DNA from: a virus
Lineage: Duplodnaviria; Heunggongvirae; Uroviricota; Caudoviricetes
Virus record (IMG/VR): IMGVR_UViG_2718218309_000002
DNA length: 35,391 nucleotides
Strand: one strand, 5' to 3'
Part shown: one piece after another, positions 5,208 through 33,757 of the stretch
Numbering within the stretch: position 1 is the first letter of the stretch
Layout of the letters: each line of letters opens with the position of its first letter
Translations under genes and position numbers: made by a program
Notes under the pieces: generated by a model
The model's database searches: none
Told to the model about the DNA's origin: nothing
The model's input: the letters and a program-made list of their open reading frames with translations, nothing else

Positions 5208-5479
5208 GTATTCGTATTGAAATTGGCGAACGTTATGTCGTTACCAGTGACAGCTTTCAGTTTATTCTCCACGAGAAAAAGAGAGCTGAAAGCGGTAAAA
5301 ACGCCGGTCAGGAATGGCTGGCGGTGGTTGGTTATTACCCGAAATTAAGCCAGCTCGTTTCCGGCCTGATGCATCACGATATTCTGACCGGAAGCGCAAA
5401 GTCTTTTGCTGATTTAAACGCGCAGGTTGAGCAACTCAGCAAGCGTTGTTCAGAGGCTTTTGGCTCATATGGCCGTTAA
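5204..5479 (+). CDS. Hypothetical early protein (P2 orf83-like, 91 aa)
   Basis: ATG at 5204 overlapping the orf82 stop (ATGA). Confidence 0.7.
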   Translation: MSIRIEIGERYVVTSDSFQFILHEKKRAESGKNAGQEWLAVVGYYPKLSQLVSGLMHHDILTGSAKSFADLNAQVEQLSKRCSEAFGSYGR

Positions 5480-7736
5480 AGCCTCCGGGCGTTTTGTCCC
5501 TCCGTCAGCATTTGCCGCAGGCACCGGTAAGACGTTTACCGGTGCTTATGCATGGAACGCGCCACGCGAGGCCGTCGGGCGCGAAAGACCCCTTACACGT
5601 GACGAGATGCGTCAGGTGCAAGGTGTTTTATCCACGATTAACCGCCTGCCTTACTTTTTGCGCTCGCTGTTTACTTCACGCTATGACTACATCCGGCGCA
5701 ATAAAAGCCCGGTGCACGGGTTTTATTTCCTCACATCCACTTTTCAGCGTCGTTTATGGCCGCGCATTGAGCGTGTGAATCAGCGCCATGAAATGAACAC
5801 CGACGCGTCGTTGCTGTTTCTGGCAGAGCGTGATCACTATGCGCGCCTGCCGGGAATGAATGACAAGGAGCTGAAAAAGTTTGCCGCCCGTATCTCATCG
5901 CAGCTTTTCATGATGTATGAGGAACTCAGCGATGCCTGGGTGGATGCGCATGGCGAAAAAGAATCACTGTTTACGGATGAGGCTCAGGATCACCTGTATG
6001 GTCATGTTGCTGGCGCTGCACGAGCTTTCAATATTTCCCCTCTCTACTGGAAAAAATACCGTAAAAGACAGATGACCACGAGGCAGGCATATTCTGCCAT
6101 TGCCCGTCTGTTTAACGATGAGTGGTGGACTCATCAGCTTAAAGGCCAGCGTATGCGCTGGCATGAAGCGTTACTGATAGCTGTCGGGGAGGTCAATAAA
6201 GACCGTTCTCCTTATGCCAGTAAACACGCCATTCGTGATGTGCGTGCGCGCCGCCAGGCAAATCTGGAATTTCTTAAATCGTGTGACCTTGAAAACAGGG
6301 AAACCGGCGAGCGCATCGACCTTATCAGTAAGGTGATGGGCAGTATTTCTAATCCTGAAATTCGCCGGATGGAGCTGATGAACACCATTGCCGGTATTGA
6401 GCGTTACGCCGCTGCAGAGGGTGATGTGGGGATGTTTATCACGCTGACCGCGCCGTCAAAGTATCACCCGACACGTCAGGTAGGAAAAGGCGAAAGTAAA
6501 ACCGTGCAGCTTAACCACGGCTGGAACGATGAGGCATTTAATCCAAAGGATGCGCAGCGTTATCTCTGCCGTATCTGGAGCCTGATGCGCACGGCATTCA
6601 AGGATAATGATTTACAGGTCTACGGTTTGCGTGTCGTCGAGCCACACCACGACGGAACGCCGCACTGGCATATGATGCTTTTTTGTAATTCACGCCAGCG
6701 TAACCAGATTATCGAAATCATGCGTCGCTATGCGCTCAAAGAGGATGGCGACGAAAGAGGAGCCGCGCGAAACCGTTTTCAGGCAAAACACCTTAACCGG
6801 GGCGGTGCTGCGGGATATATCGCGAAATACATTTCAAAAAACATCGACGGCTATGCACTGGATGGTCAGCTCGATAACGACACCGGCAGGCCGCTGAAAG
6901 ACACTGCAGCGGCTGTTACCGCATGGGCGTCAACGTGGCGCATCCCGCAATTTAAAACGGTTGGCCTACCGACAATGGGGGCTTACCGTGAACTACGCAA
7001 ATTGCCGCGCGGCGTCAGCATTGCTGATGAGTTTGACGAGCGCGTCGAGGCTGCACGCGCCGCCGCAGACAGTGGTGATTTTGCGTTGTATATCAGCGCG
7101 CAGGGTGGGGCAAATGTCCCGCGCGATTGTCAGACTGTCAGAGTCGCCCGTAGCCCGTCGGATGAAGTTAACGAGTACGAGGAAGAAGTCGAGAGAGTGG
7201 TCGGCATTTACGCGCCGCATCTCGGCGCGCGTCATATTCATATCACCAGAACGACGGACTGGCGCATTGTGCCGAAAGTTCCGGTCGTTGAGCCTTTGAC
7301 TTTAAAAAGCGGCATCGCCGCGCCTCGGAGTCCTGTCAATAACTGTGGAAGGCTCGCCCGAGGTATCGTTCCAGTTATGGCCCCTACGCCATCTGAGGAT
7401 GCCTCAGCGGTGTTAAATCTTGTTGATGATGGGGTTGTCGTATGGGGTGATCCTGAAGCCATGAGGGTGCTCAGGGATGTGCTAAAACATGACGTGCCGC
7501 AACCAAATCGACACCAGCGGAGCAGGGAACCACTAAAACAGCAGGAAATCGCGCTATCAGCCAGACTGACCAAAGCAGAGCGGGAGCAGATACCGCACAT
7601 CCGTTATGACTTAGCACAGCATAATATCACACCGAAACGTTGGGAACTTGAGGCGCTGGCGCGAGGGGCGACTGTCATTTATGATGGAAAAACATTTACA
7701 TATCAGGTTGTAAATGAATGGGAAAATGAATTTTAA
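5469..7736 (+). CDS. A: Rolling-circle replication initiator gpA (about 755 aa)
   Basis: ORF-track frame 5427..7736 starts at TTG; the first ATG at 5469 gives MAVKASGRF; an HUH-type motif PHHDGTPHWHMMLF and a tyrosine-rich region YIAKYISKN are present. Confidence 0.9.
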   Translation: MAVKASGRFVPPSAFAAGTGKTFTGAYAWNAPREAVGRERPLTRDEMRQVQGVLSTINRLPYFLRSLFTSRYDYIRRNKSPVHGFYFLTSTFQRRLWPRIERVNQRHEMNTDASLLFLAERDHYARLPGMNDKELKKFAARISSQLFMMYEELSDAWVDAHGEKESLFTDEAQDHLYGHVAGAARAFNISPLYWKKYRKRQMTTRQAYSAIARLFNDEWWTHQLKGQRMRWHEALLIAVGEVNKDRSPYASKHAIRDVRARRQANLEFLKSCDLENRETGERIDLISKVMGSISNPEIRRMELMNTIAGIERYAAAEGDVGMFITLTAPSKYHPTRQVGKGESKTVQLNHGWNDEAFNPKDAQRYLCRIWSLMRTAFKDNDLQVYGLRVVEPHHDGTPHWHMMLFCNSRQRNQIIEIMRRYALKEDGDERGAARNRFQAKHLNRGGAAGYIAKYISKNIDGYALDGQLDNDTGRPLKDTAAAVTAWASTWRIPQFKTVGLPTMGAYRELRKLPRGVSIADEFDERVEAARAAADSGDFALYISAQGGANVPRDCQTVRVARSPSDEVNEYEEEVERVVGIYAPHLGARHIHITRTTDWRIVPKVPVVEPLTLKSGIAAPRSPVNNCGRLARGIVPVMAPTPSEDASAVLNLVDDGVVVWGDPEAMRVLRDVLKHDVPQPNRHQRSREPLKQQEIALSARLTKAEREQIPHIRYDLAQHNITPKRWELEALARGATVIYDGKTFTYQVVNEWENEF

Positions 7737-7827
7737 TGATATTAAGATACTAGGAACTAAAGAGGTATATACCCGCGATAATTGAAGGTGCTTGATTTCG
7801 AAGATAATCAGGTTCATGTTAACAGCT

Positions 7828-7971
7828 ATGAATATTGAGTTGACCGTAGAACAAAAAATCGCCATCGAAGCATTGCAACGAAAAAGTCGTGATCTCCATA
7901 TCCGCGATCGGGTCTGCTGCGTATTGCTTTCTTCTGAAAGCTGGTCAATCACAATGATTGCACCATCCTAA
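7828..7971 (+). pseudogene. Possible remnant of an IS630-family transposase N-terminus (47 codons)
   Basis: ATG at 7828 encodes MNIELTVEQKIAIEALQRKSRDLHIRDRVCCVLLSSESWSITMIAPS then stop; the pattern resembles N-terminal HTH regions of IS630-type transposases as I recall them; no downstream catalytic region. Confidence 0.35.
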
Positions 7972-8110
7972 TATATCCATAAAACAACCGCTTTGTGACA
8001 CCTGAATGACTGGACTGGTAGTAAAAAAGTAAACTTGAAACTGGTATTGAGTTTTAAGTGCGCGGGTTTTCGGTAGGGAGGTGACACTCATTAAATTAAA
8101 AGTTTCTGGT

Positions 8111-8140
8111 AAGGGGGCGGGGCCCCCTTTATAGGTTTTT
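8111..8140. terminator. GC-rich palindrome plus T-run: putative bidirectional intrinsic terminator between the A operon and the cargo gene
   Basis: AAGGGGGC-GGG-GCCCCCTT (8-bp stem, 3-nt loop) followed by ATAGGTTTTTT on the plus strand; the minus-strand side is also AT-rich; sits where the two transcription units converge. Confidence 0.45.
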
Positions 8141-11071
8141 TCAGGAATGAATAACCTTTCTAACCTGGAAGCTATCATTATGAGATGGGATTATTTCTCC
8201 TTTGAAAATAAGCCCTTCTCTCAAATACTGCCTGCTTTCAGAGGAAAATATTGTTACGTGGAAAAATATATCTACAGGGAGTTTGTCACAACTACAGAAT
8301 CCATATCCTCGTTGTGGAAAGTATCTTTTAATGATGCACTCCCCACTGATTGCTTCAACGTTTGGTGATTCTTTGCTATAAATATGACTAATCACCATGC
8401 CTATCTCTGTTCTGGAAATGTCACACATCAAAGTGTCGCCATCAACGACGGAATCTATATTATATTGTTTTAATAAATTTTGAGAAATATCGATGGGCCC
8501 ATCAATGTCATTAACAATTAGATATCCAAGGCCACGCTCAACATCATAGCTATCTACAATTGCCCTAGCATGTTTTTTTACGATGCCTAGTTTATAAATG
8601 TCGCCAAGAGTATTCTCTGGTGGTTCGCTTTCATCATATCTATTTTGTTTAAAGACTAATAGTCGATTGATTAACTCTTTTTGGCATTCATATTTTTCAT
8701 GTGTTATCTCATTGCTAATATAAACAGAGTCTTCAGATATTAAATACTCTAGAAATAGATTTCTAATATTGTACATTTTAGAGATGTGATTGCCTTTGGA
8801 AGCATAAGTATCTTTTATTTTATTTGCGATAGAACTGTCGGTGATCGCTGTTGTTAATGCCATTTGATAGAAGTAAACGCTATTACGAGATGCGAGCTTT
8901 AAATGTGCTCTACCTTTATAAGAAATTGCTAATTTCTGATTTGATGAGAGTGTAGTTGATGACATATCATAGGGTTCTATTAATTTTGCCATAATTAAGC
9001 TCTCTAAAGCTTTATCGACAGCTAGTTCTGTTGCTCCTAAAGCATCGAAATAACTGCTGATAGATTGTACGCTTAAATGTTTATCCTCAATGCTTTTTCC
9101 AGGCACTTGAATGGAGTTAAGTAAAGTAAGGATTCTTAACGCTTGCAATGGTGATTGTCTTACTTGACTATCAACTTGGAATATAGGATATATTTCTGGG
9201 ATGTCACCATTTTTATAAACTTCATAATCACCGCGAATTAACGCGTCCATGAAGCGAGTGAAATTTATCGAAGGAAGTTCACCACTAATATAAGATTTTA
9301 TCAAGTCCTCTATTTTAATTGCAGGGGATGTGATTATTCTTTTTGATAATAATAATGTTCTGCGTATATTATAGTTGGCAAGCTCACCAAGAGTTTGTGA
9401 TGTGTAATCATGATTCACAAAAATATTTTCAATCACTTTAGAAAATTTATTTATATCTTCAATGGAAATTTTAATACCTTTTGATAAAAGATAGCTTTTC
9501 TTTTGTTCATTAGTATCTTTATTGTTAAGTTTTGATGTGATGAAGTTAATTCGCTTTCTGAATACTTCCCGTGGGGACGGAGTTGGTAGAAAAAATGATT
9601 TTGATTGATAGATGCTAAATATATCTGTCTTGGAGAAAATCCAAGCTGATTTATCTGTCACGGGGAAAATAACAAGGCAGTGTTTAATGTTTTTTTTAAT
9701 TGAATTGCTAAACTGGAAGACTTTTGTTTTAAAGTCAAGTGTGAATTCATCAGTGTTATCTACGACTATTATTGGAAGCATTTTTCTATTGCTTACAACA
9801 TTGTGAAGGATGCGTTTTAAATATCCCTCTCGATCATTTTCAACAGCTTCATCTAAATAACGTCCAAATTTTTCCTTGAACTCATCTTTACTTCTATTGT
9901 AAAGAGCTGCGTCCGCTCCTCTTGATTTTCTTTTATATTCATTGTGATAAAGTCCAAGGAGATCATTCCATTCAGGTACGCCGTCCTTGTAAAGCTGGGT
10001 CTCAAGGGTTTTTATTATTTCTTCAGTCATCCAATCTAGAACTGTATCTTCTCGCCCTGTAGCTTCTAAGCAGTTTATTTTAATAAGTAAGCATCGTTCT
10101 CTAATCGTTTTATTAAGGGTGCGACTGAAAAAACGGTCTAAAAAAGTCGACTTCCCAGAGCCAGTTGGTCCAACTATAAAAACGGATTGTTCTGACTCTA
10201 GATTTATATCAGACTCAATATTTGACATTATTAAATCAGAAAGCTCATCTCCAACTTTATTTTTATTATAGTTTATATTTGACAAGACGCTAGTTGTTAT
10301 TTTCTCAAGTGAATAGTCTGCAATTCTACTTTCATATGATTCAACAAAACATTCCATCATCATCTCGTCATCTCCCTCTAATCGAGAGAAGAAACTAGAG
10401 AATACCCTTTCTAAATCATAAGCCATATCACTTTTTCTTGTTATTTTTATATCAGATCCAATGATTGGGGCTGTTAATTCATTATTTAACAATAAACGTT
10501 TGTTGTGAATATCATCAAATATAGTGTTATACAATCTTTTGTTAAATGCTTCTTTTGATAATAATTCATAGAACACGCTAAATGATTTTTCGACTGCCTC
10601 GATACTAGGGAATACAATTGCCTCTTTACTTTTGAAGTTTTCACCAGGTATAAATGTTTTGAATATTACCCAACATAACCCATCAGTTAGAATAGAAAGA
10701 GGTATGCCATTTGGCGATGCGTAGCTAAATGCCTGGTTAATTCCTGTCTCGCATTTCTTTAAAGCAGAACCTGATATTTTTAAATGTCTTACAGTGTTTT
10801 TTTGAGCTGTTTCAACTTCTAAAATGCCGATTTTTTTGGCTTCGACAACAAAGGAGGGATGATCATCAGTGGAAAGAATGTAGTCAGAGAATCCATTGTC
10901 ATGGGCAGTTTCACAAGCAATATCAGAGTGCATCCATCCAAGCGTCTCTGTTAATATGCGAGTTATGATTTGAATTTTAGCATCTTCTTCTGATTGGATT
11001 TTTGTGATGTTATGATTAACATCACTCATAATTTTTAAGAATTTTTTTTCGCTGGAATCTAAACTAGTCAT
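8141..11071 (-). CDS. Candidate anti-phage defence protein (976 aa): N-terminal PD-(D/E)xK nuclease-like domain, central P-loop NTPase, C-terminal cold-shock-like OB domain
   Basis: Single uninterrupted ORF in the A-to-cos slot. Residues 55-80 GFSDYILSTDDHPSFVVEAKKIG fit a PD-(D/E)xK / HsdR-N-like nuclease core; residues 301-309 GPTGSGKST form a Walker A (nt 10145..10171); residues 434-442 IIVVDNTDE are a candidate Walker B; residues about 908-976 (nt 8144..8350) resemble a cold-shock domain. Strongly AT-rich relative to the flanking phage genes. Confidence 0.85.
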   Translation of the reverse strand: MTSLDSSEKKFLKIMSDVNHNITKIQSEEDAKIQIITRILTETLGWMHSDIACETAHDNGFSDYILSTDDHPSFVVEAKKIGILEVETAQKNTVRHLKISGSALKKCETGINQAFSYASPNGIPLSILTDGLCWVIFKTFIPGENFKSKEAIVFPSIEAVEKSFSVFYELLSKEAFNKRLYNTIFDDIHNKRLLLNNELTAPIIGSDIKITRKSDMAYDLERVFSSFFSRLEGDDEMMMECFVESYESRIADYSLEKITTSVLSNINYNKNKVGDELSDLIMSNIESDINLESEQSVFIVGPTGSGKSTFLDRFFSRTLNKTIRERCLLIKINCLEATGREDTVLDWMTEEIIKTLETQLYKDGVPEWNDLLGLYHNEYKRKSRGADAALYNRSKDEFKEKFGRYLDEAVENDREGYLKRILHNVVSNRKMLPIIVVDNTDEFTLDFKTKVFQFSNSIKKNIKHCLVIFPVTDKSAWIFSKTDIFSIYQSKSFFLPTPSPREVFRKRINFITSKLNNKDTNEQKKSYLLSKGIKISIEDINKFSKVIENIFVNHDYTSQTLGELANYNIRRTLLLSKRIITSPAIKIEDLIKSYISGELPSINFTRFMDALIRGDYEVYKNGDIPEIYPIFQVDSQVRQSPLQALRILTLLNSIQVPGKSIEDKHLSVQSISSYFDALGATELAVDKALESLIMAKLIEPYDMSSTTLSSNQKLAISYKGRAHLKLASRNSVYFYQMALTTAITDSSIANKIKDTYASKGNHISKMYNIRNLFLEYLISEDSVYISNEITHEKYECQKELINRLLVFKQNRYDESEPPENTLGDIYKLGIVKKHARAIVDSYDVERGLGYLIVNDIDGPIDISQNLLKQYNIDSVVDGDTLMCDISRTEIGMVISHIYSKESPNVEAISGECIIKRYFPQRGYGFCSCDKLPVDIFFHVTIFSSESRQYLREGLIFKGEIIPSHNDSFQVRKVIHS

Positions 11072-11126
11072 TTCTTATCATCCAAAGTGATGTAAGTAAG
11101 TTACGGATAAATTCTTATGTATTGAG

Positions 11127-11154
11127 ATTGTAAGGTAATTAGCCATGAGTTCAA
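11127..11154 (-). promoter_or_regulatory. Putative sigma70 promoter for the cargo gene (-35 TTGAAC, 16-nt spacer, -10 TACAAT on the minus strand)
   Basis: Read on the minus strand: TTGAAC-N16-TACAAT about 55 nt upstream of the start codon at 11071; by-eye match to consensus only. Confidence 0.3.
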
Positions 11155-11283
11155 GTAGTTAGTTTGCATATCCTTGCGTGAAAATGCATCTGTCGTCTGA
11201 AATTGGTTTGCTGACACAAACCCAGCCGCCGCTGGGCAGGGTTTGAAGCGCACCTGCATTAAAACCGCCCCGTGAAGCGGGCA

Positions 11284-11302
11284 GGCGAGGCGGGGAAAGC
11301 AC
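11284..11302. other. cos site: 19-nt P2 cohesive-end sequence GGCGAGGCGGGGAAAGCAC
   Basis: Exact match to the P2 cohesive-end sequence as I recall it; located downstream of Q, where P2 has cos. Confidence 0.8.
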
Positions 11303-11444
11303 TGCGCGCTAGCGGTGGTGCTGATTTTATTTTTTCAGCGTCTGAGCGCGTCGTGATGGCGTTTAGAGTGTGCGCCGGGGCGTTGGTGTGTCTGCGGGGT
11401 GTTTTGTGCGGTGGTGAGCGTGTGAGGGTGTGATGACGGGGTGT

Positions 11445-11466
11445 AAAAAAGCCGCCCGCAGGCGGC
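11445..11466 (-). terminator. Intrinsic terminator of the P-Q operon
   Basis: On the minus strand, just after the Q stop: GCCGCC-TGCG-GGCGGC hairpin followed by TTTTTT. Confidence 0.6.
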
Positions 11467-11471
11467 GATGT

Positions 11472-12506
11472 TCAGCCGTTGTCAGTGTCCAGTGAGTAGT
11501 TTTTAAAGCGGATGACCTCCTGACCGAGCCAGCCGTTTATTTCCCGAATCCTGTCCTGTAACGGGATAAGCTCATTGCGGACAAAGACCTTTGCCACTTT
11601 CTCAATATCACCCAGCGACCCGACGTTCTCCGGCTTGCCGCCCATCAACTGAAAGGGGATGCGGTGCGCGTCCAGCAGGTCAGCGGCGCTGGCTTTTTTG
11701 ATATTAAAAAAATCGTCCTTCGTTGCGACTTCACTGAGCGGGATAATTTTAATGCCGTCGGCTTTCCCCTGTGGGGCATAGAGAAACAGATTTTTAAAGT
11801 TGTTGCGGCCTTTCGACTTCACCATGTTTTCGCGGAGCATTTCGATATCGTTGCGATCCTGCACGGCATCAGTGACGTACATGATGTATCCGGCATGTGC
11901 GCCGTTTTCGTAATACTTGCGGCGGAACAGCGTGGCCGACTCATTCAGCCAGGCAGAGTTAAGGGCGCTGAGATATTCCGGCAGGCCGTACAACTCCTGA
12001 TTAATATCCGGCTCCAGCAGGTGAAACACGGAGCCGGGCGCGAAGGCTGTCGGTTCGTTGAAGGACGGCACCCACCAGTAAACATCCTCTTCCACCCCAC
12101 GGCGGGTATATTTTGCCGGTGAGGTTTCCAGTCTGATGACCTTACCGGTGGTGCTGTAACGCTTTTCCAGAAACGCATTACCGAACACCAGAAAATCCAG
12201 CACAAAGCGGCTGAAATCCTGTTGTGAAAGCCACGGATGCGGGATAAATGTCGAGGCCAGAATATTACGTTTGACGTAAATCGGTGAGCTGTGATGTACG
12301 GCAGCACGCAGGCTTTTTGCCAGACCGGTAAAGCTGACCGGTGGCTCATACCATCTGCCGTTACTGATGCACTCGACGTAATCCAGAATGTCACGGCGGT
12401 CGAGTACCGGCACCGGCTCACCAAAGGTGAATGCCTCCATTTTCGGGGCGCTGGCGGTCATTGTTTTTGCCGCAGGTTGCGGTGTTTTCCCTTTTTTCTT
12501 GCTCAT
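11472..12506 (-). CDS. Q: Portal protein gpQ (344 aa)
   Basis: 344 aa, the P2 gpQ length; first gene after cos on the leftward packaging operon; start overlaps the P stop. Confidence 0.95.
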   Translation of the reverse strand: MSKKKGKTPQPAAKTMTASAPKMEAFTFGEPVPVLDRRDILDYVECISNGRWYEPPVSFTGLAKSLRAAVHHSSPIYVKRNILASTFIPHPWLSQQDFSRFVLDFLVFGNAFLEKRYSTTGKVIRLETSPAKYTRRGVEEDVYWWVPSFNEPTAFAPGSVFHLLEPDINQELYGLPEYLSALNSAWLNESATLFRRKYYENGAHAGYIMYVTDAVQDRNDIEMLRENMVKSKGRNNFKNLFLYAPQGKADGIKIIPLSEVATKDDFFNIKKASAADLLDAHRIPFQLMGGKPENVGSLGDIEKVAKVFVRNELIPLQDRIREINGWLGQEVIRFKNYSLDTDNG

Positions 12507-25935: not shown

Positions 25936-26835
25936 ATGAGTGGTATTCGTATAACTCAGGCTATTGATAACAATCAGATTTTAGTAAATGTAAATACTTT
26001 TAATTATAGTGTTAATCCCTATCCACTCAAATGTCCTGACCCAAATTGCTCTGCTCATTTGGTGTATGTCAAAAGCCATATTCGTCGGAGTTTTAATAAA
26101 ACCTTGCATATCCCCGCCTTCTTTAGACTGGAAAAAAATTTCACGCATGACAAATTATGTCAGTATGGAACTTCAGGATTGAATACAATTTATGCAAGTG
26201 ATTCCAGTCATGATATCAGCCGTGCGCTTGCCACAGGTAATAATATATTCCGTATACATATACTCGATGAAGATGATATCTCTAAATTAAGCAGAAAAGC
26301 TGCAGCTATGCAGGCAAATCCACCTTCTGATACTACAGACCGCGTTTATGTCAAGAGAGGTCGGAAAGCCCCCTATGTGAAGAACATGGATAGCTTACGG
26401 GAGATCTATGAATATGGAAAAGCTCACCCCAACAAGAGAAACAGCATAAAAATTGTTACTGGAACAAGTACTGTAACGTGGTCTGATTTTTTCTATGAAA
26501 CAACGCAGTTAGAACGATTGTCAACTTACCTCCAGAAAGTAAAAATAGCTCAGGTTGCTGTAATTATGAAAGTGCATGTGGCGAGAATCCCTATGGCGAA
26601 ATTTAATTATCGACACTTCATTGAAGGTTCGCCAATGAGGATAAAAGGGGGCTTTAATATATATCCTACGATTCAATTAGGAAATGTTACTCCAAAATTA
26701 TTTCCGTTGAGTAGCATTGTCATGGTACTCGGTAAATTTACTATTCCAACAAATAGAAAAATGATAATGGATCCAACATTTGAGCGTGAAGTCAGAACCA
26801 TAGTTTCTAGTGAAGAGCAAGTGCTAATTCTTTGA
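25936..26835 (+). CDS. Hypothetical cargo protein in the Z/fun slot (299 aa), candidate defence or exclusion factor
   Basis: ATG at 25936 preceded by GGAGGAG; AT-rich; lies between G and FI where P2 carries Z/fun; no recognisable catalytic motif or transmembrane segment; contains a CPDPNCSAH element. Confidence 0.75.
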   Translation: MSGIRITQAIDNNQILVNVNTFNYSVNPYPLKCPDPNCSAHLVYVKSHIRRSFNKTLHIPAFFRLEKNFTHDKLCQYGTSGLNTIYASDSSHDISRALATGNNIFRIHILDEDDISKLSRKAAAMQANPPSDTTDRVYVKRGRKAPYVKNMDSLREIYEYGKAHPNKRNSIKIVTGTSTVTWSDFFYETTQLERLSTYLQKVKIAQVAVIMKVHVARIPMAKFNYRHFIEGSPMRIKGGFNIYPTIQLGNVTPKLFPLSSIVMVLGKFTIPTNRKMIMDPTFEREVRTIVSSEEQVLIL

Positions 26836-33457: not shown

Positions 33458-33538
33458 TGTTTTTATTTTATCTGTTTGTTTTATAAGGATAAATTAACTA
33501 AAATGGCACCATCAACAAAACCGGAAGAGGTGCTCGCG

Positions 33539-33757
33539 ATGTTTCATTGTCCTTTATGCCAGCATGCCGCACATGCGCGTACAAGTCGCTATATCACTGA
33601 CACGACAAAAGAGCGTTATCACCAGTGCCAGAACGTGAATTGCAGCGCCACGTTCATCACTTATGAGTCGGTACAGCGATACATCGTGAAGCCGGGAGAA
33701 GTCCACGCCGTAAGACCGCACCCGTTGCCGTCAGGGCAGCAAATTATGTGGATGTAA
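33539..33757 (+). CDS. ogr: Late-gene transcription activator Ogr (zinc finger, 72 aa)
   Basis: ORF-track frame 33476..33757; ATG at codon 22 gives MFHCPLCQHAAHARTSRYITDTTKERYHQCQNVNCSATF with a CxxC...CxxxxC zinc finger. Confidence 0.95.
   Translation: MFHCPLCQHAAHARTSRYITDTTKERYHQCQNVNCSATFITYESVQRYIVKPGEVHAVRPHPLPSGQQIMWM

What the first reader, a model, noticed from the sequence alone, without database searches (positions are those of the whole stretch)
11072..11283. Cargo gene has its own sigma70-like promoter next to cos, implying expression in the lysogen
The 976-aa gene is transcribed away from cos and toward A, opposite to the early operon. A reasonable -35/-10 pair (TTGAAC-N16-TACAAT, minus strand, around 11127..11154) precedes it. 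Independence from the Ogr-dependent late promoters is what one would expect for a lysogen-expressed defence gene.
Basis: inference. Interest (0 to 1): 0.35.

Follow-up and report, generated by a model that had tools for sequence, protein, structure and literature searches.

The report
Own promoter of a P2-prophage cargo gene
A P2-like prophage carries a foreign 976-aa gene next to its DNA-packaging site, and the short stretch in front of it holds a believable ordinary bacterial promoter, placed almost exactly where phage P2's own old/tin defence genes have their mapped one, so this is an expected arrangement and not a new one.

Summary
TTGAAC-N16-TACAAT lies on the minus strand at 11154..11127, 55 nt upstream of the ATG (11071) of the 976-aa gene. 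The gene runs from cos toward gene A. The match is modestly better than chance: it is the 5th best sigma70 site in the 35-kb window on my own scoring matrix, and 2.5-3.6% of shuffles of the intergenic region reach its score. The finding region has three parts. The diverged but conserved cos flank spans 11165-11284, the promoter 11127-11154, and a ~49-nt leader follows. The decisive comparison is P2 itself. The P2 reference record annotates the old-tin mRNA start 44-46 nt before old and 149-151 nt from cos. Here the predicted start is ~164 nt from cos and 49 nt before the ATG. The mapped P2 promoter matches consensus less well than this candidate. No Ogr-type dyad and no LexA box lie in the region, and a strong terminator follows Q. 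The cargo is AT-rich (33.5% GC versus ~53% in the flanking phage genes). It encodes a nuclease / STAND-like ATPase / tandem cold-shock-domain protein that recurs as cargo of mobile elements. Expression in the lysogen is a reasonable inference by analogy and is not shown. Verdict: an ordinary moron-type transcription unit at the known P2 hotspot, of low interest.

The parts
11284..11302 (+). cos cohesive-end sequence GGCGAGGCGGGGAAAGCAC (P2-type 19-mer). It starts one base beyond the finding's right edge.
   Evidence: Read directly. Identical to the annotated cosR of P2 NC_001895. Pattern found in 25 viral contigs.
11265..11284 (-). Conserved GC hairpin followed by TTTTAATGCA, immediately inside cos. 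It is part of the cos flank and may also act as a weak terminator.
   Evidence: Terminator scan. Conserved in P2, P4, 186 and all cargo types. The fold is not better than shuffles (z -0.37).
11165..11259 (.). Diverged but conserved cos flank. ATGCA motifs (minus-strand reading) lie at 11259-11255, 11189-11184, a degenerate ACGCA at 11179-11175, and 11169-11165. A CGCCAG-like block lies between them. This is probably the terminase-recognition part of cos, not cargo and not promoter.
   Evidence: The same motifs sit at the same distances from cos in 10 cargo types plus P4 and 186. There are 4 ATGCA/TGCAT in 124 nt against 0.23 expected from the window density.
11149..11154 (-). Candidate -35 hexamer TTGAAC (4 of 6 to TTGACA). 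It begins 10 nt after the last cos-flank motif.
11127..11132 (-). Candidate -10 hexamer TACAAT (5 of 6 to TATAAT), spacer 16 nt, no extended -10 TG.
11072..11120 (-). Predicted 5' leader of ~49 nt, from an inferred start at A 11120 (7 nt after the -10). The Shine-Dalgarno is weak (GGATGATAAGAAATG) and there is no significant structure.
   Evidence: The start position is inferred from promoter geometry. The fold has z -1.16. No Rfam family matches. P2 old has a 44-46-nt leader.
8141..11071 (-). Cargo gene, 976 aa, 33.5% GC. Domains: N-terminal restriction-endonuclease-like (HSDR_N-type) domain, P-loop STAND/ORC-Cdc6-like ATPase, winged-helix region, two C-terminal cold-shock domains.
   Evidence: GC content.
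8111..8129 (.). GC-rich hairpin between the convergent cargo gene (stop 8141) and gene A (stop 7736). The T-run lies on the + side, so it is a good terminator for early-operon read-through and a weaker one for the cargo transcript.
   Evidence: Terminator scan. The minus-strand fold is -14.7 kcal/mol with z -2.86.
11451..11466 (-). Intrinsic terminator after portal gene Q (GCCGCCTGCGGGCGGC + U6). It insulates the cargo from late P-Q transcription.
   Evidence: -14.4 kcal/mol, z -3.39, 0 of 200 shuffles as good.

Best explanation
The interval 11072-11283 is the upstream region of a moron-type, single-gene cargo inserted at the known P2 A-cos-Q hotspot. It has three parts.
1. 11165-11284 is phage backbone. 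It is the conserved flank of cos (hairpin, then ATGCA motifs), presumably needed for terminase recognition.
2. 11127-11154 is a sigma70-type promoter (TTGAAC-N16-TACAAT) at the cos-proximal edge of the AT-rich, non-conserved DNA.
3. About 11120-11072 is a short unstructured leader.

E. coli RNA polymerase with sigma70 is proposed to start at about 11120 and transcribe the 976-aa gene toward A. The transcript would end near the hairpin at 8111-8129. No site for the phage's late activator (Ogr) or for LexA was found, and late P-Q transcripts are stopped after Q. The promoter is therefore expected to fire at a low constitutive level in the repressed prophage, as the old-tin promoter of P2 does.

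Shown: the sequence match, its rank, the anatomy, and the P2 parallel. Inferred: that it fires, where it starts, and that it is active in the lysogen.
For: 1. The hexamers and spacing are present and form the only strong site on the right strand between cos and the ATG. The site ranks 5th in the window. It is reached by 2.5-3.6% of shuffles and by 1% of window tiles.
2. The P2 NC_001895 record annotates 'transcript start; old-tin mRNA' 44-46 nt upstream of old and 149-151 nt from cosR. By my reading the P2 promoter there is TTGAAT-N17-TAAAAA, with its -35 at 115 nt from cos.
3. In the window the -35 is at 130 nt from cos. The distance from the -10 end to the ATG is 55 nt, against 51 nt in P2. 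The mapped P2 promoter scores 7.8 on the same matrix, against 12.7 here.
4. Loci whose cos-proximal gene faces toward cos score at most 9.5 on the equivalent strand and interval.
5. Q is followed by a strong terminator.
6. No Ogr dyad lies in the region at <=1 mismatch, while the regions where the late promoters are expected each have one. No LexA box is present.
7. The cargo is compositionally foreign, 33.5% GC against ~53% in A and Q. The whole segment 7737-~11160 occurs in only 6 of 5426 E. coli genomes.
8. Homologues elsewhere are stand-alone genes. Most have long, AT-rich upstream intergenic regions.
9. P2 old and tin are equally AT-rich (35% and 33% GC). OLD is nevertheless reported as constitutively expressed in lysogens (PMC12445682).
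10. Hotspot systems from P4, and probably P2, were active when cloned with native promoters (PMC9122126).
Against: - There are no transcript data of any kind.
- The promoter cannot be tested by conservation. All known copies are >=99.5% identical, with zero substitutions in 11072-11282. The nearest other homologue is only 59% identical in protein.
- The crude scan finds as many or better hexamer pairs inside the AT-rich gene as shuffles predict, so AT-rich DNA produces such matches readily.
- The spacer is 16 nt and not 17. There is no extended -10 and no clear UP element.
- The low score of the real P2 promoter shows that matrix score is a poor guide. A weaker site could equally be the true start.
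- AT-rich foreign DNA is a typical H-NS target (established knowledge), so the promoter could be silenced.
Confidence: 0.6

Rival explanations
1. The hexamer pair is a chance match in AT-rich DNA. The gene is transcribed from another, weaker start in 11072-11260, for example a site like the low-scoring real P2 old promoter.
For: Promoter-like sites in 7500-12500 are not enriched over shuffles (18 versus 14.2 +/- 2.9). 3.8% of tiles inside the cargo reach the same score. The experimentally mapped P2 promoter scores only 7.8, so functional promoters here need not score well.
Against: On the correct strand the next best site scores 8.6 and overlaps the start codon. All others score <=5.7. The candidate's distances from cos and from the ATG mirror those of P2.
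Confidence: 0.2
2. The promoter exists but the gene is silent or nearly silent in the lysogen. It could be repressed by H-NS or another xenogeneic silencer, or need an unknown signal. 'Expression in the lysogen' would then not follow from the promoter.
For: The cargo is 29-39% GC over 3 kb, within ~53% GC phage DNA. By established knowledge this is the classic H-NS substrate. One hotspot system in PMC9122126 (PARIS-1) was inactive from its native promoter.
Against: P2 old (34.8% GC) and tin (32.9% GC) are just as AT-rich, and they act from the prophage. No operator-like repeat or palindrome lies around the promoter.
Confidence: 0.2
3. The cargo is mainly expressed by read-through of late P-Q transcripts across cos during lytic growth, and not from its own promoter.
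For: The cargo is co-oriented with Q and P. The hairpins at 11284..11265 and ~11245..11217 are not better than shuffles (z -0.37 and -0.96).
Against: A strong terminator directly follows Q (z -3.39, U6). A gene of this kind gives no obvious benefit if made only late in the phage's own lytic cycle. P2 old-tin has its own mapped start.
Confidence: 0.05

Closest known systems
P2 old-tin transcription unit (P2 NC_001895; 'transcript start; old-tin mRNA' annotated in the record; Myung & Calendar 1995 recalled from memory, not read here)
   Same: Same hotspot between A and cos, and the same orientation away from cos. A sigma70-type promoter sits directly after the conserved cos flank (-35 at 115 versus 130 nt from cos). 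The leader is of similar length (44-46 versus ~49 nt). Both are AT-rich foreign genes (33-35% GC) in a ~53% GC phage. Both lie next to cos.
   Different: No sequence homology beyond the cos flank. The cargo differs: a single 976-aa nuclease/STAND-like/CSD protein instead of OLD (ATPase-Toprim) plus Tin. The promoter here matches consensus better. The P2 start is experimentally mapped, whereas this one is only predicted.
Phage 'morons' (Hendrix/Juhala concept, from established knowledge): extra genes in prophages with their own promoter and terminator and deviant base composition, expressed from the repressed prophage
   Same: It is inserted at a variable site between conserved genes. It has deviant GC content, a promoter-like site upstream and a hairpin downstream. 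It is a single autonomous gene.
   Different: Expression from the prophage is not demonstrated. The downstream hairpin has its T-run on the opposite strand.
P2/P4 cos-adjacent defence hotspots (Rousset et al. 2022, PMC9122126; PMC13586616)
   Same: The locus is exactly the gpA-gpQ hotspot described there. Cargo differs from phage to phage (cdt, Fic, DUF4238, retron, old/tin and others) while the cos flank is kept.
   Different: This particular cargo was not found among the systems named in the text sections read. It has no strong PADLOC hit. Orientation is not universal: in pro483, 569R9 and phage 899 the cargo is co-directional with A.
Phage 186 p95 (tum/orf97) at the same A-cos locus
   Same: Another own-promoter accessory unit in the homologous interval.
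   Different: p95 points toward cos and is LexA-repressed. No LexA box occurs here.
Avs/STAND-type single-protein defence NTPases (architecture comparison for the cargo only)
   Same: Tripartite layout: N-terminal nuclease-like effector, central STAND/AAA_16/AAA_22-type NTPase, C-terminal putative sensor. Weak nSTAND_NTPase5 and NACHT hits occur in some family members.
   Different: No significant hit to PADLOC Avs models. The closest fold matches are ORC/Cdc6 AAA+ proteins. The C-terminus is two cold-shock domains and not TPR-like repeats. No defence phenotype is known.

Membership tests
sigma70-dependent promoter | -35 and -10 hexamers close to TTGACA and TATAAT, separated by 16-18 nt, upstream of a gene on the same strand | tested here: met
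   TTGAAC-N16-TACAAT at 11154..11127, 55 nt before the ATG. Score 12.7, 5th in the window.
sigma70-dependent promoter | A primary transcript 5' end about 7 nt downstream of the -10, dependent on the hexamers | not testable with these tools
   No RNA data. The predicted start at A 11120 is an inference.
sigma70-dependent promoter | Conservation of the hexamers among diverged relatives | tested here: inconclusive
   All copies are >=99.5% identical, with no change in 11072-11282. The next homologue is 59% identical in protein and sits in another context.
P2 old-tin-type hotspot transcription unit | Located between gene A and cos, transcribed away from cos | tested here: met
P2 old-tin-type hotspot transcription unit | Promoter directly after the conserved cos flank, with a start ~150 nt from cos and a leader of ~45 nt | tested here: met
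   Met for the predicted geometry only. The -35 is at 130 nt from cos (115 in P2). The predicted start is ~164 nt from cos (149-151 in P2). The leader is ~49 nt (44-46 in P2).
P2 old-tin-type hotspot transcription unit | Sequence homology to the P2 old promoter or gene | tested here: not met
   Homology to P2 ends at ~11250 by BLAST. Beyond that only the cos-flank motifs align. The protein is unrelated to OLD.
Moron | Inserted at a site whose content varies among otherwise collinear phages | tested here: met
   Relatives match only A and the cos/Q side. The interval holds different genes in each.
Moron | Base composition different from the surrounding phage | tested here: met
   33.5% GC versus ~53% in A and Q.
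Moron | Own terminator downstream | tested here: inconclusive
   The hairpin at 8111-8129 is stable (z -2.86), but the U-run follows it on the + strand, not the cargo strand.
Moron | Expressed from the repressed prophage | not testable with these tools
   Needs RNA or protein data from a lysogen.
Ogr/Delta-dependent P2 late promoter | Partial dyad TGT-N12-ACA centred near -55 (from established knowledge of P2 late promoters) | tested here: not met
   No match with <=1 mismatch in 11072-11283. One-mismatch matches are present in the regions where the late promoters are expected (14348, 27065 and 20653). Those late promoters were located by gene position only.
Known anti-phage defence system (PADLOC v2.0.0 models) | Significant match of the cargo protein to a system model | tested here: not met
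   The best hit is mad8 at E 3e-5, over the P-loop region only. PHROG 14719 is 'unknown function'.

The most novel reading that the evidence does not exclude
The gene driven by this promoter is an uncharacterised single-protein anti-phage system. Its layout would be a restriction-endonuclease-like N-terminal effector, a STAND/ORC-Cdc6-like ATPase switch, and two cold-shock domains that sense single-stranded phage nucleic acid. It would be kept constitutively 'on guard' in P2 lysogens from a promoter wedged against the packaging signal. Its recurrence as cargo of unrelated mobile elements would then mark a widespread, unnamed defence family. Those elements are a lambdoid prophage, int-AlpA-Rep islands, a GPA-type Rep element and a Vibrio singleton island.
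Probability: 0.35. Interest if true: 0.55.

Novelty: new member of a known kind. Interest (0 to 1): 0.15.

Why it matters
If confirmed, it adds one more case to a rule already established for P2 old/tin and the P2/P4 hotspots. That rule is that cargo next to cos brings its own housekeeping-type promoter and is expressed from the silent prophage. This is what allows such genes to protect, or otherwise change, the host.

The practical value is small but real. The analysis defines a roughly 95-nt native promoter/leader fragment (about 11072-11165) for cloning this candidate system. It also shows that the rest of the 'intergenic' region is packaging signal that should not be mistaken for regulatory DNA. 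The promoter itself would not surprise a specialist. The uncharacterised cargo protein is the more interesting object.

Tried and rejected
- **Conservation test of the hexamers.** Rejected as uninformative. The six E. coli genomes and three other copies (two viral contigs and one NCBI assembly) differ at 1-17 sites over 3.6 kb and at none in 11072-11282.
- **Other genomic contexts for the same upstream DNA.** None found in phages or E. coli genomes. The exact-protein look-up returned the same prophage context.
- **Upstream regions of distant homologues.** These genes are mostly stand-alone with long AT-rich upstream regions, but the DNA cannot be aligned and the best sigma70 hits are scattered. 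This is only weak support.
- **Ogr dyad and LexA box searches.** Negative in the region.
- **Rfam scan of 7700-11500.** Only chance-level snoRNA hits.
- **Repeats or operators around the promoter.** Nothing convincing.
- **Small ORFs in the interval.** Only 21-53-aa ORFs of no evident meaning.
- **A backbone-provided promoter inside the conserved cos flank.** No good site on the away strand in the window, so rejected.
- **Original papers.** I could not retrieve Myung & Calendar 1995 or Ziermann & Calendar 1990. Statements about them rest on the GenBank annotation, on citing papers, or on memory, and are marked so.
- **Second viral-contig pattern scan.** Returned the same 25 loci.

Full report
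**Context.** The window is an integrated P2-like prophage.
- The regulatory and replication genes are int (1897-2910, minus), C, cox and gene A (5427-7736, plus; Phage_GPA).
- The packaging genes are portal Q (11472-12506, minus) and terminase P.
- An Ogr/Delta zinc-finger gene lies at 33476-33757. Host genes flank both ends.
- The P2 19-nt cohesive-end sequence GGCGAGGCGGGGAAAGCAC lies at 11284-11302 (identical to the annotated cosR of P2).
- The 976-aa ORF (8141-11071, minus) fills the A-cos interval. This is the gpA-gpQ 'hotspot' of P2-like phages described by Rousset et al. (PMC9122126).
- Relatives match the window only in A and from ~11250 rightwards. In between they carry other cargo: old/tin, cdtABC, Fic, DUF4238, DUF4209 and a retron.

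**Observation.** TTGAAC-N16-TACAAT is present on the minus strand at 11154..11127. The -10 ends 55 nt before the ATG.
- By simple hexamer counting the match is unremarkable. The scan found 18 sites in 5 kb against 14.2 +/- 2.9 in shuffles, and several better ones lie inside the AT-rich gene.
- With a position-weighted sigma70 matrix of my own (approximate frequencies plus a spacer term) it scores 12.7. This is the 5th best hit in the window on both strands. The best hit sits upstream of cox, where P2 Pe is expected.
- 2.5-3.6% of dinucleotide shuffles of the intergenic region reach the score. So do 1% of 212-nt tiles of the window and 3.8% of tiles within the cargo.
- It is the only strong site on the right strand between cos and the ATG.

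**Anatomy of 11072-11283.** BLAST homology to other P2-likes stops at ~11250. Reading away from cos in 10 cargo types plus P4 and 186 shows a conserved layout that extends further:
- a hairpin plus TTTTA;
- ATGCA-gt-TGCAT at 25-37 nt from cos;
- a CGCCAG-like block at about 50-58 nt;
- two or three ATGCA motifs about 10 nt apart at 95-125 nt.

In the window these motifs are at 11259-11255, 11189-11184, 11179-11175 (ACGCA) and 11169-11165. That is 4 exact ATGCA/TGCAT in 124 nt against 0.23 expected. I read this as the terminase-recognition flank of cos that P2 and P4 share. Rousset et al. cite Ziermann & Calendar 1990 for a shared core cos. The original paper was not available, so the functional assignment is an inference. 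More than half of the flagged interval is therefore packaging signal. The candidate -35 begins 10 nt after the last motif. The rest is a ~49-nt leader without significant structure and without any Rfam match.

**The P2 parallel.** The P2 reference record annotates 'transcript start; old-tin mRNA' at two positions. They lie 44-46 nt upstream of old and 149-151 nt from cosR. The sequence there reads TTGAAT-N17-TAAAAA, with the -10 ending 6-8 nt before those starts (the hexamer assignment is mine).

| Feature | P2 old-tin | This window |
|---|---|---|
| -35, distance from cos | 115 nt | 130 nt |
| -10 end to ATG | 51 nt | 55 nt |
| Score on my matrix | 7.8 | 12.7 |
| Start site | mapped (annotated) | predicted only |

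OLD is described as constitutively expressed in the lysogen (PMC12445682). The window therefore reproduces, with unrelated DNA, the geometry of a mapped lysogen-active promoter at the same locus. Loci whose cos-proximal gene points toward cos have no comparable site on the equivalent strand (maximum 9.5). The intervals compared there differ in length, so this is only weak support.

**Independence from phage circuits.**
- A strong intrinsic terminator follows Q (11466..11451, -14.4 kcal/mol, z -3.39, U6).
- The two further hairpins before the promoter are not better than shuffles.
- No TGT-N12-ACA dyad occurs in the interval with up to one mismatch. The regions where late promoters are expected each contain one. 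I located those late promoters by gene position only.
- No LexA box is present, unlike 186 p95 at the homologous locus.
- No operator-like repeat is present.
- In the lysogen Pe is repressed, so convergent transcription from A should be absent. The hairpin at 8111-8129, with its T-run on the plus strand, would stop early-operon read-through.

**Caveats.**
- No RNA data exist.
- Conservation is uninformative. The cargo segment (7737 to ~11160) occurs in 6 of 5426 complete E. coli genomes at >=99.5% identity, with no substitution in 11072-11282.
- The cargo is 33.5% GC, a typical H-NS substrate by established knowledge. However, P2 old and tin are 34.8% and 32.9% GC and still act from the prophage.
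- The low matrix score of the real P2 promoter warns that score does not identify the true start.

**The cargo.** The family is well conserved (59% mean column identity over 26 members).
- It has a PD-(D/E)xK-like motif (D63, E77-x-K79). Pfam HSDR_N matches in 11 of 26 members.
- It has a P-loop (G301-T309) and a Walker-B-like DNxDE motif (438-442).
- Pfam assigns AAA_22 and AAA_16, with weak nSTAND_NTPase5 and NACHT hits in some members.
- Two C-terminal cold-shock domains match CspA and YB-1 structures.
- An AlphaFold model (mean pLDDT 69) finds ORC/Cdc6 AAA+ proteins as the best folds, and RdrA further down the list.
- PADLOC gives only P-loop-level hits. PHROG 14719 is 'unknown function'.
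- Homologues are stand-alone cargo of other mobile elements:
  - a Vibrio cholerae singleton island;
  - a Citrobacter int-AlpA-Rep island;
  - a GPA-type Rep plus integrase element;
  - a Plesiomonas lambdoid prophage;
  - a prophage end in Yersinia.

This pattern fits a defence or conflict gene but does not prove one.

**Verdict.** The arrangement is the known one for P2 hotspot cargo and for morons. It is a new member of a known kind and of low interest. I put about 0.6 on this hexamer pair being the functional promoter. I put about 0.85 on the gene having its own promoter somewhere in 11072-11165. I put about 0.6-0.7 on expression in the lysogen.

Noticed in passing
window 11165-11284; also L002 (P2), L034 (P4), L035 (186), L003-L033: The flank of cos is conserved much further than BLAST shows. 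Reading away from cos: a hairpin + TTTTA, ATGCAgtTGCAT at 25-37 nt, a CGCCAG-like block at ~50-58 nt, and 2-3 ATGCA motifs ~10 nt apart at 95-125 nt. This holds in every cargo type examined and in P4 and 186. It is probably the terminase-recognition part of cos. It sets the true right-hand boundary of the hotspot at ~125 nt from the nick.
   Followed up: partly
window 8141-11071 (minus): The cargo protein combines an HSDR_N-like nuclease, a STAND/ORC-Cdc6-like ATPase and two cold-shock domains. It belongs to a widespread family of ~975-aa proteins, with ~800-aa relatives whose match to the query stops before the cold-shock-domain region. It has no strong PADLOC hit and recurs as stand-alone cargo of unrelated mobile elements. 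It is a candidate unnamed defence system.
   Followed up: partly
window 25936-26835 (+) and 26030..26003 (-): A 299-aa ORF without any Pfam hit sits at what appears to be the second P2 variable locus (the Z/fun region between tail genes). The second-best sigma70-like site of the whole window (TTGAGT-N16-TATAAT, minus strand) lies inside its 5' end, pointing the other way.
   Followed up: no
window 7737-8140: About 400 nt of 40.6% GC DNA lie between the stop of A and the stop of the cargo. The segment is found only together with this cargo (6 E. coli genomes). RefSeq annotates a 47-aa hypothetical ORF there, at about window 7828-7971 (+). It may be a remnant of an earlier cargo or part of the module. 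The hairpin at 8111-8129 lies at its edge.
   Followed up: partly
L028, L029, L032 versus L002, L030, L031, L033: The orientation of hotspot cargo is not fixed. In pro483, 569R9 and phage 899 the cargo is co-directional with gene A. In P2, the cdt phage, vB_YpM_22, pro147 and this window it is transcribed away from cos. In pro147 a retron (RT) lies on the other side of cos, between cos and Q.
   Followed up: no
window 9343-9372 (+), 10545-10518 (-), 9164-9194 (+) and others inside the cargo gene: Many strong sigma70-like sites lie on both strands inside the 33% GC gene. They are potential spurious intragenic or antisense promoters of the kind usually silenced by H-NS in AT-rich foreign DNA.
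   Followed up: no
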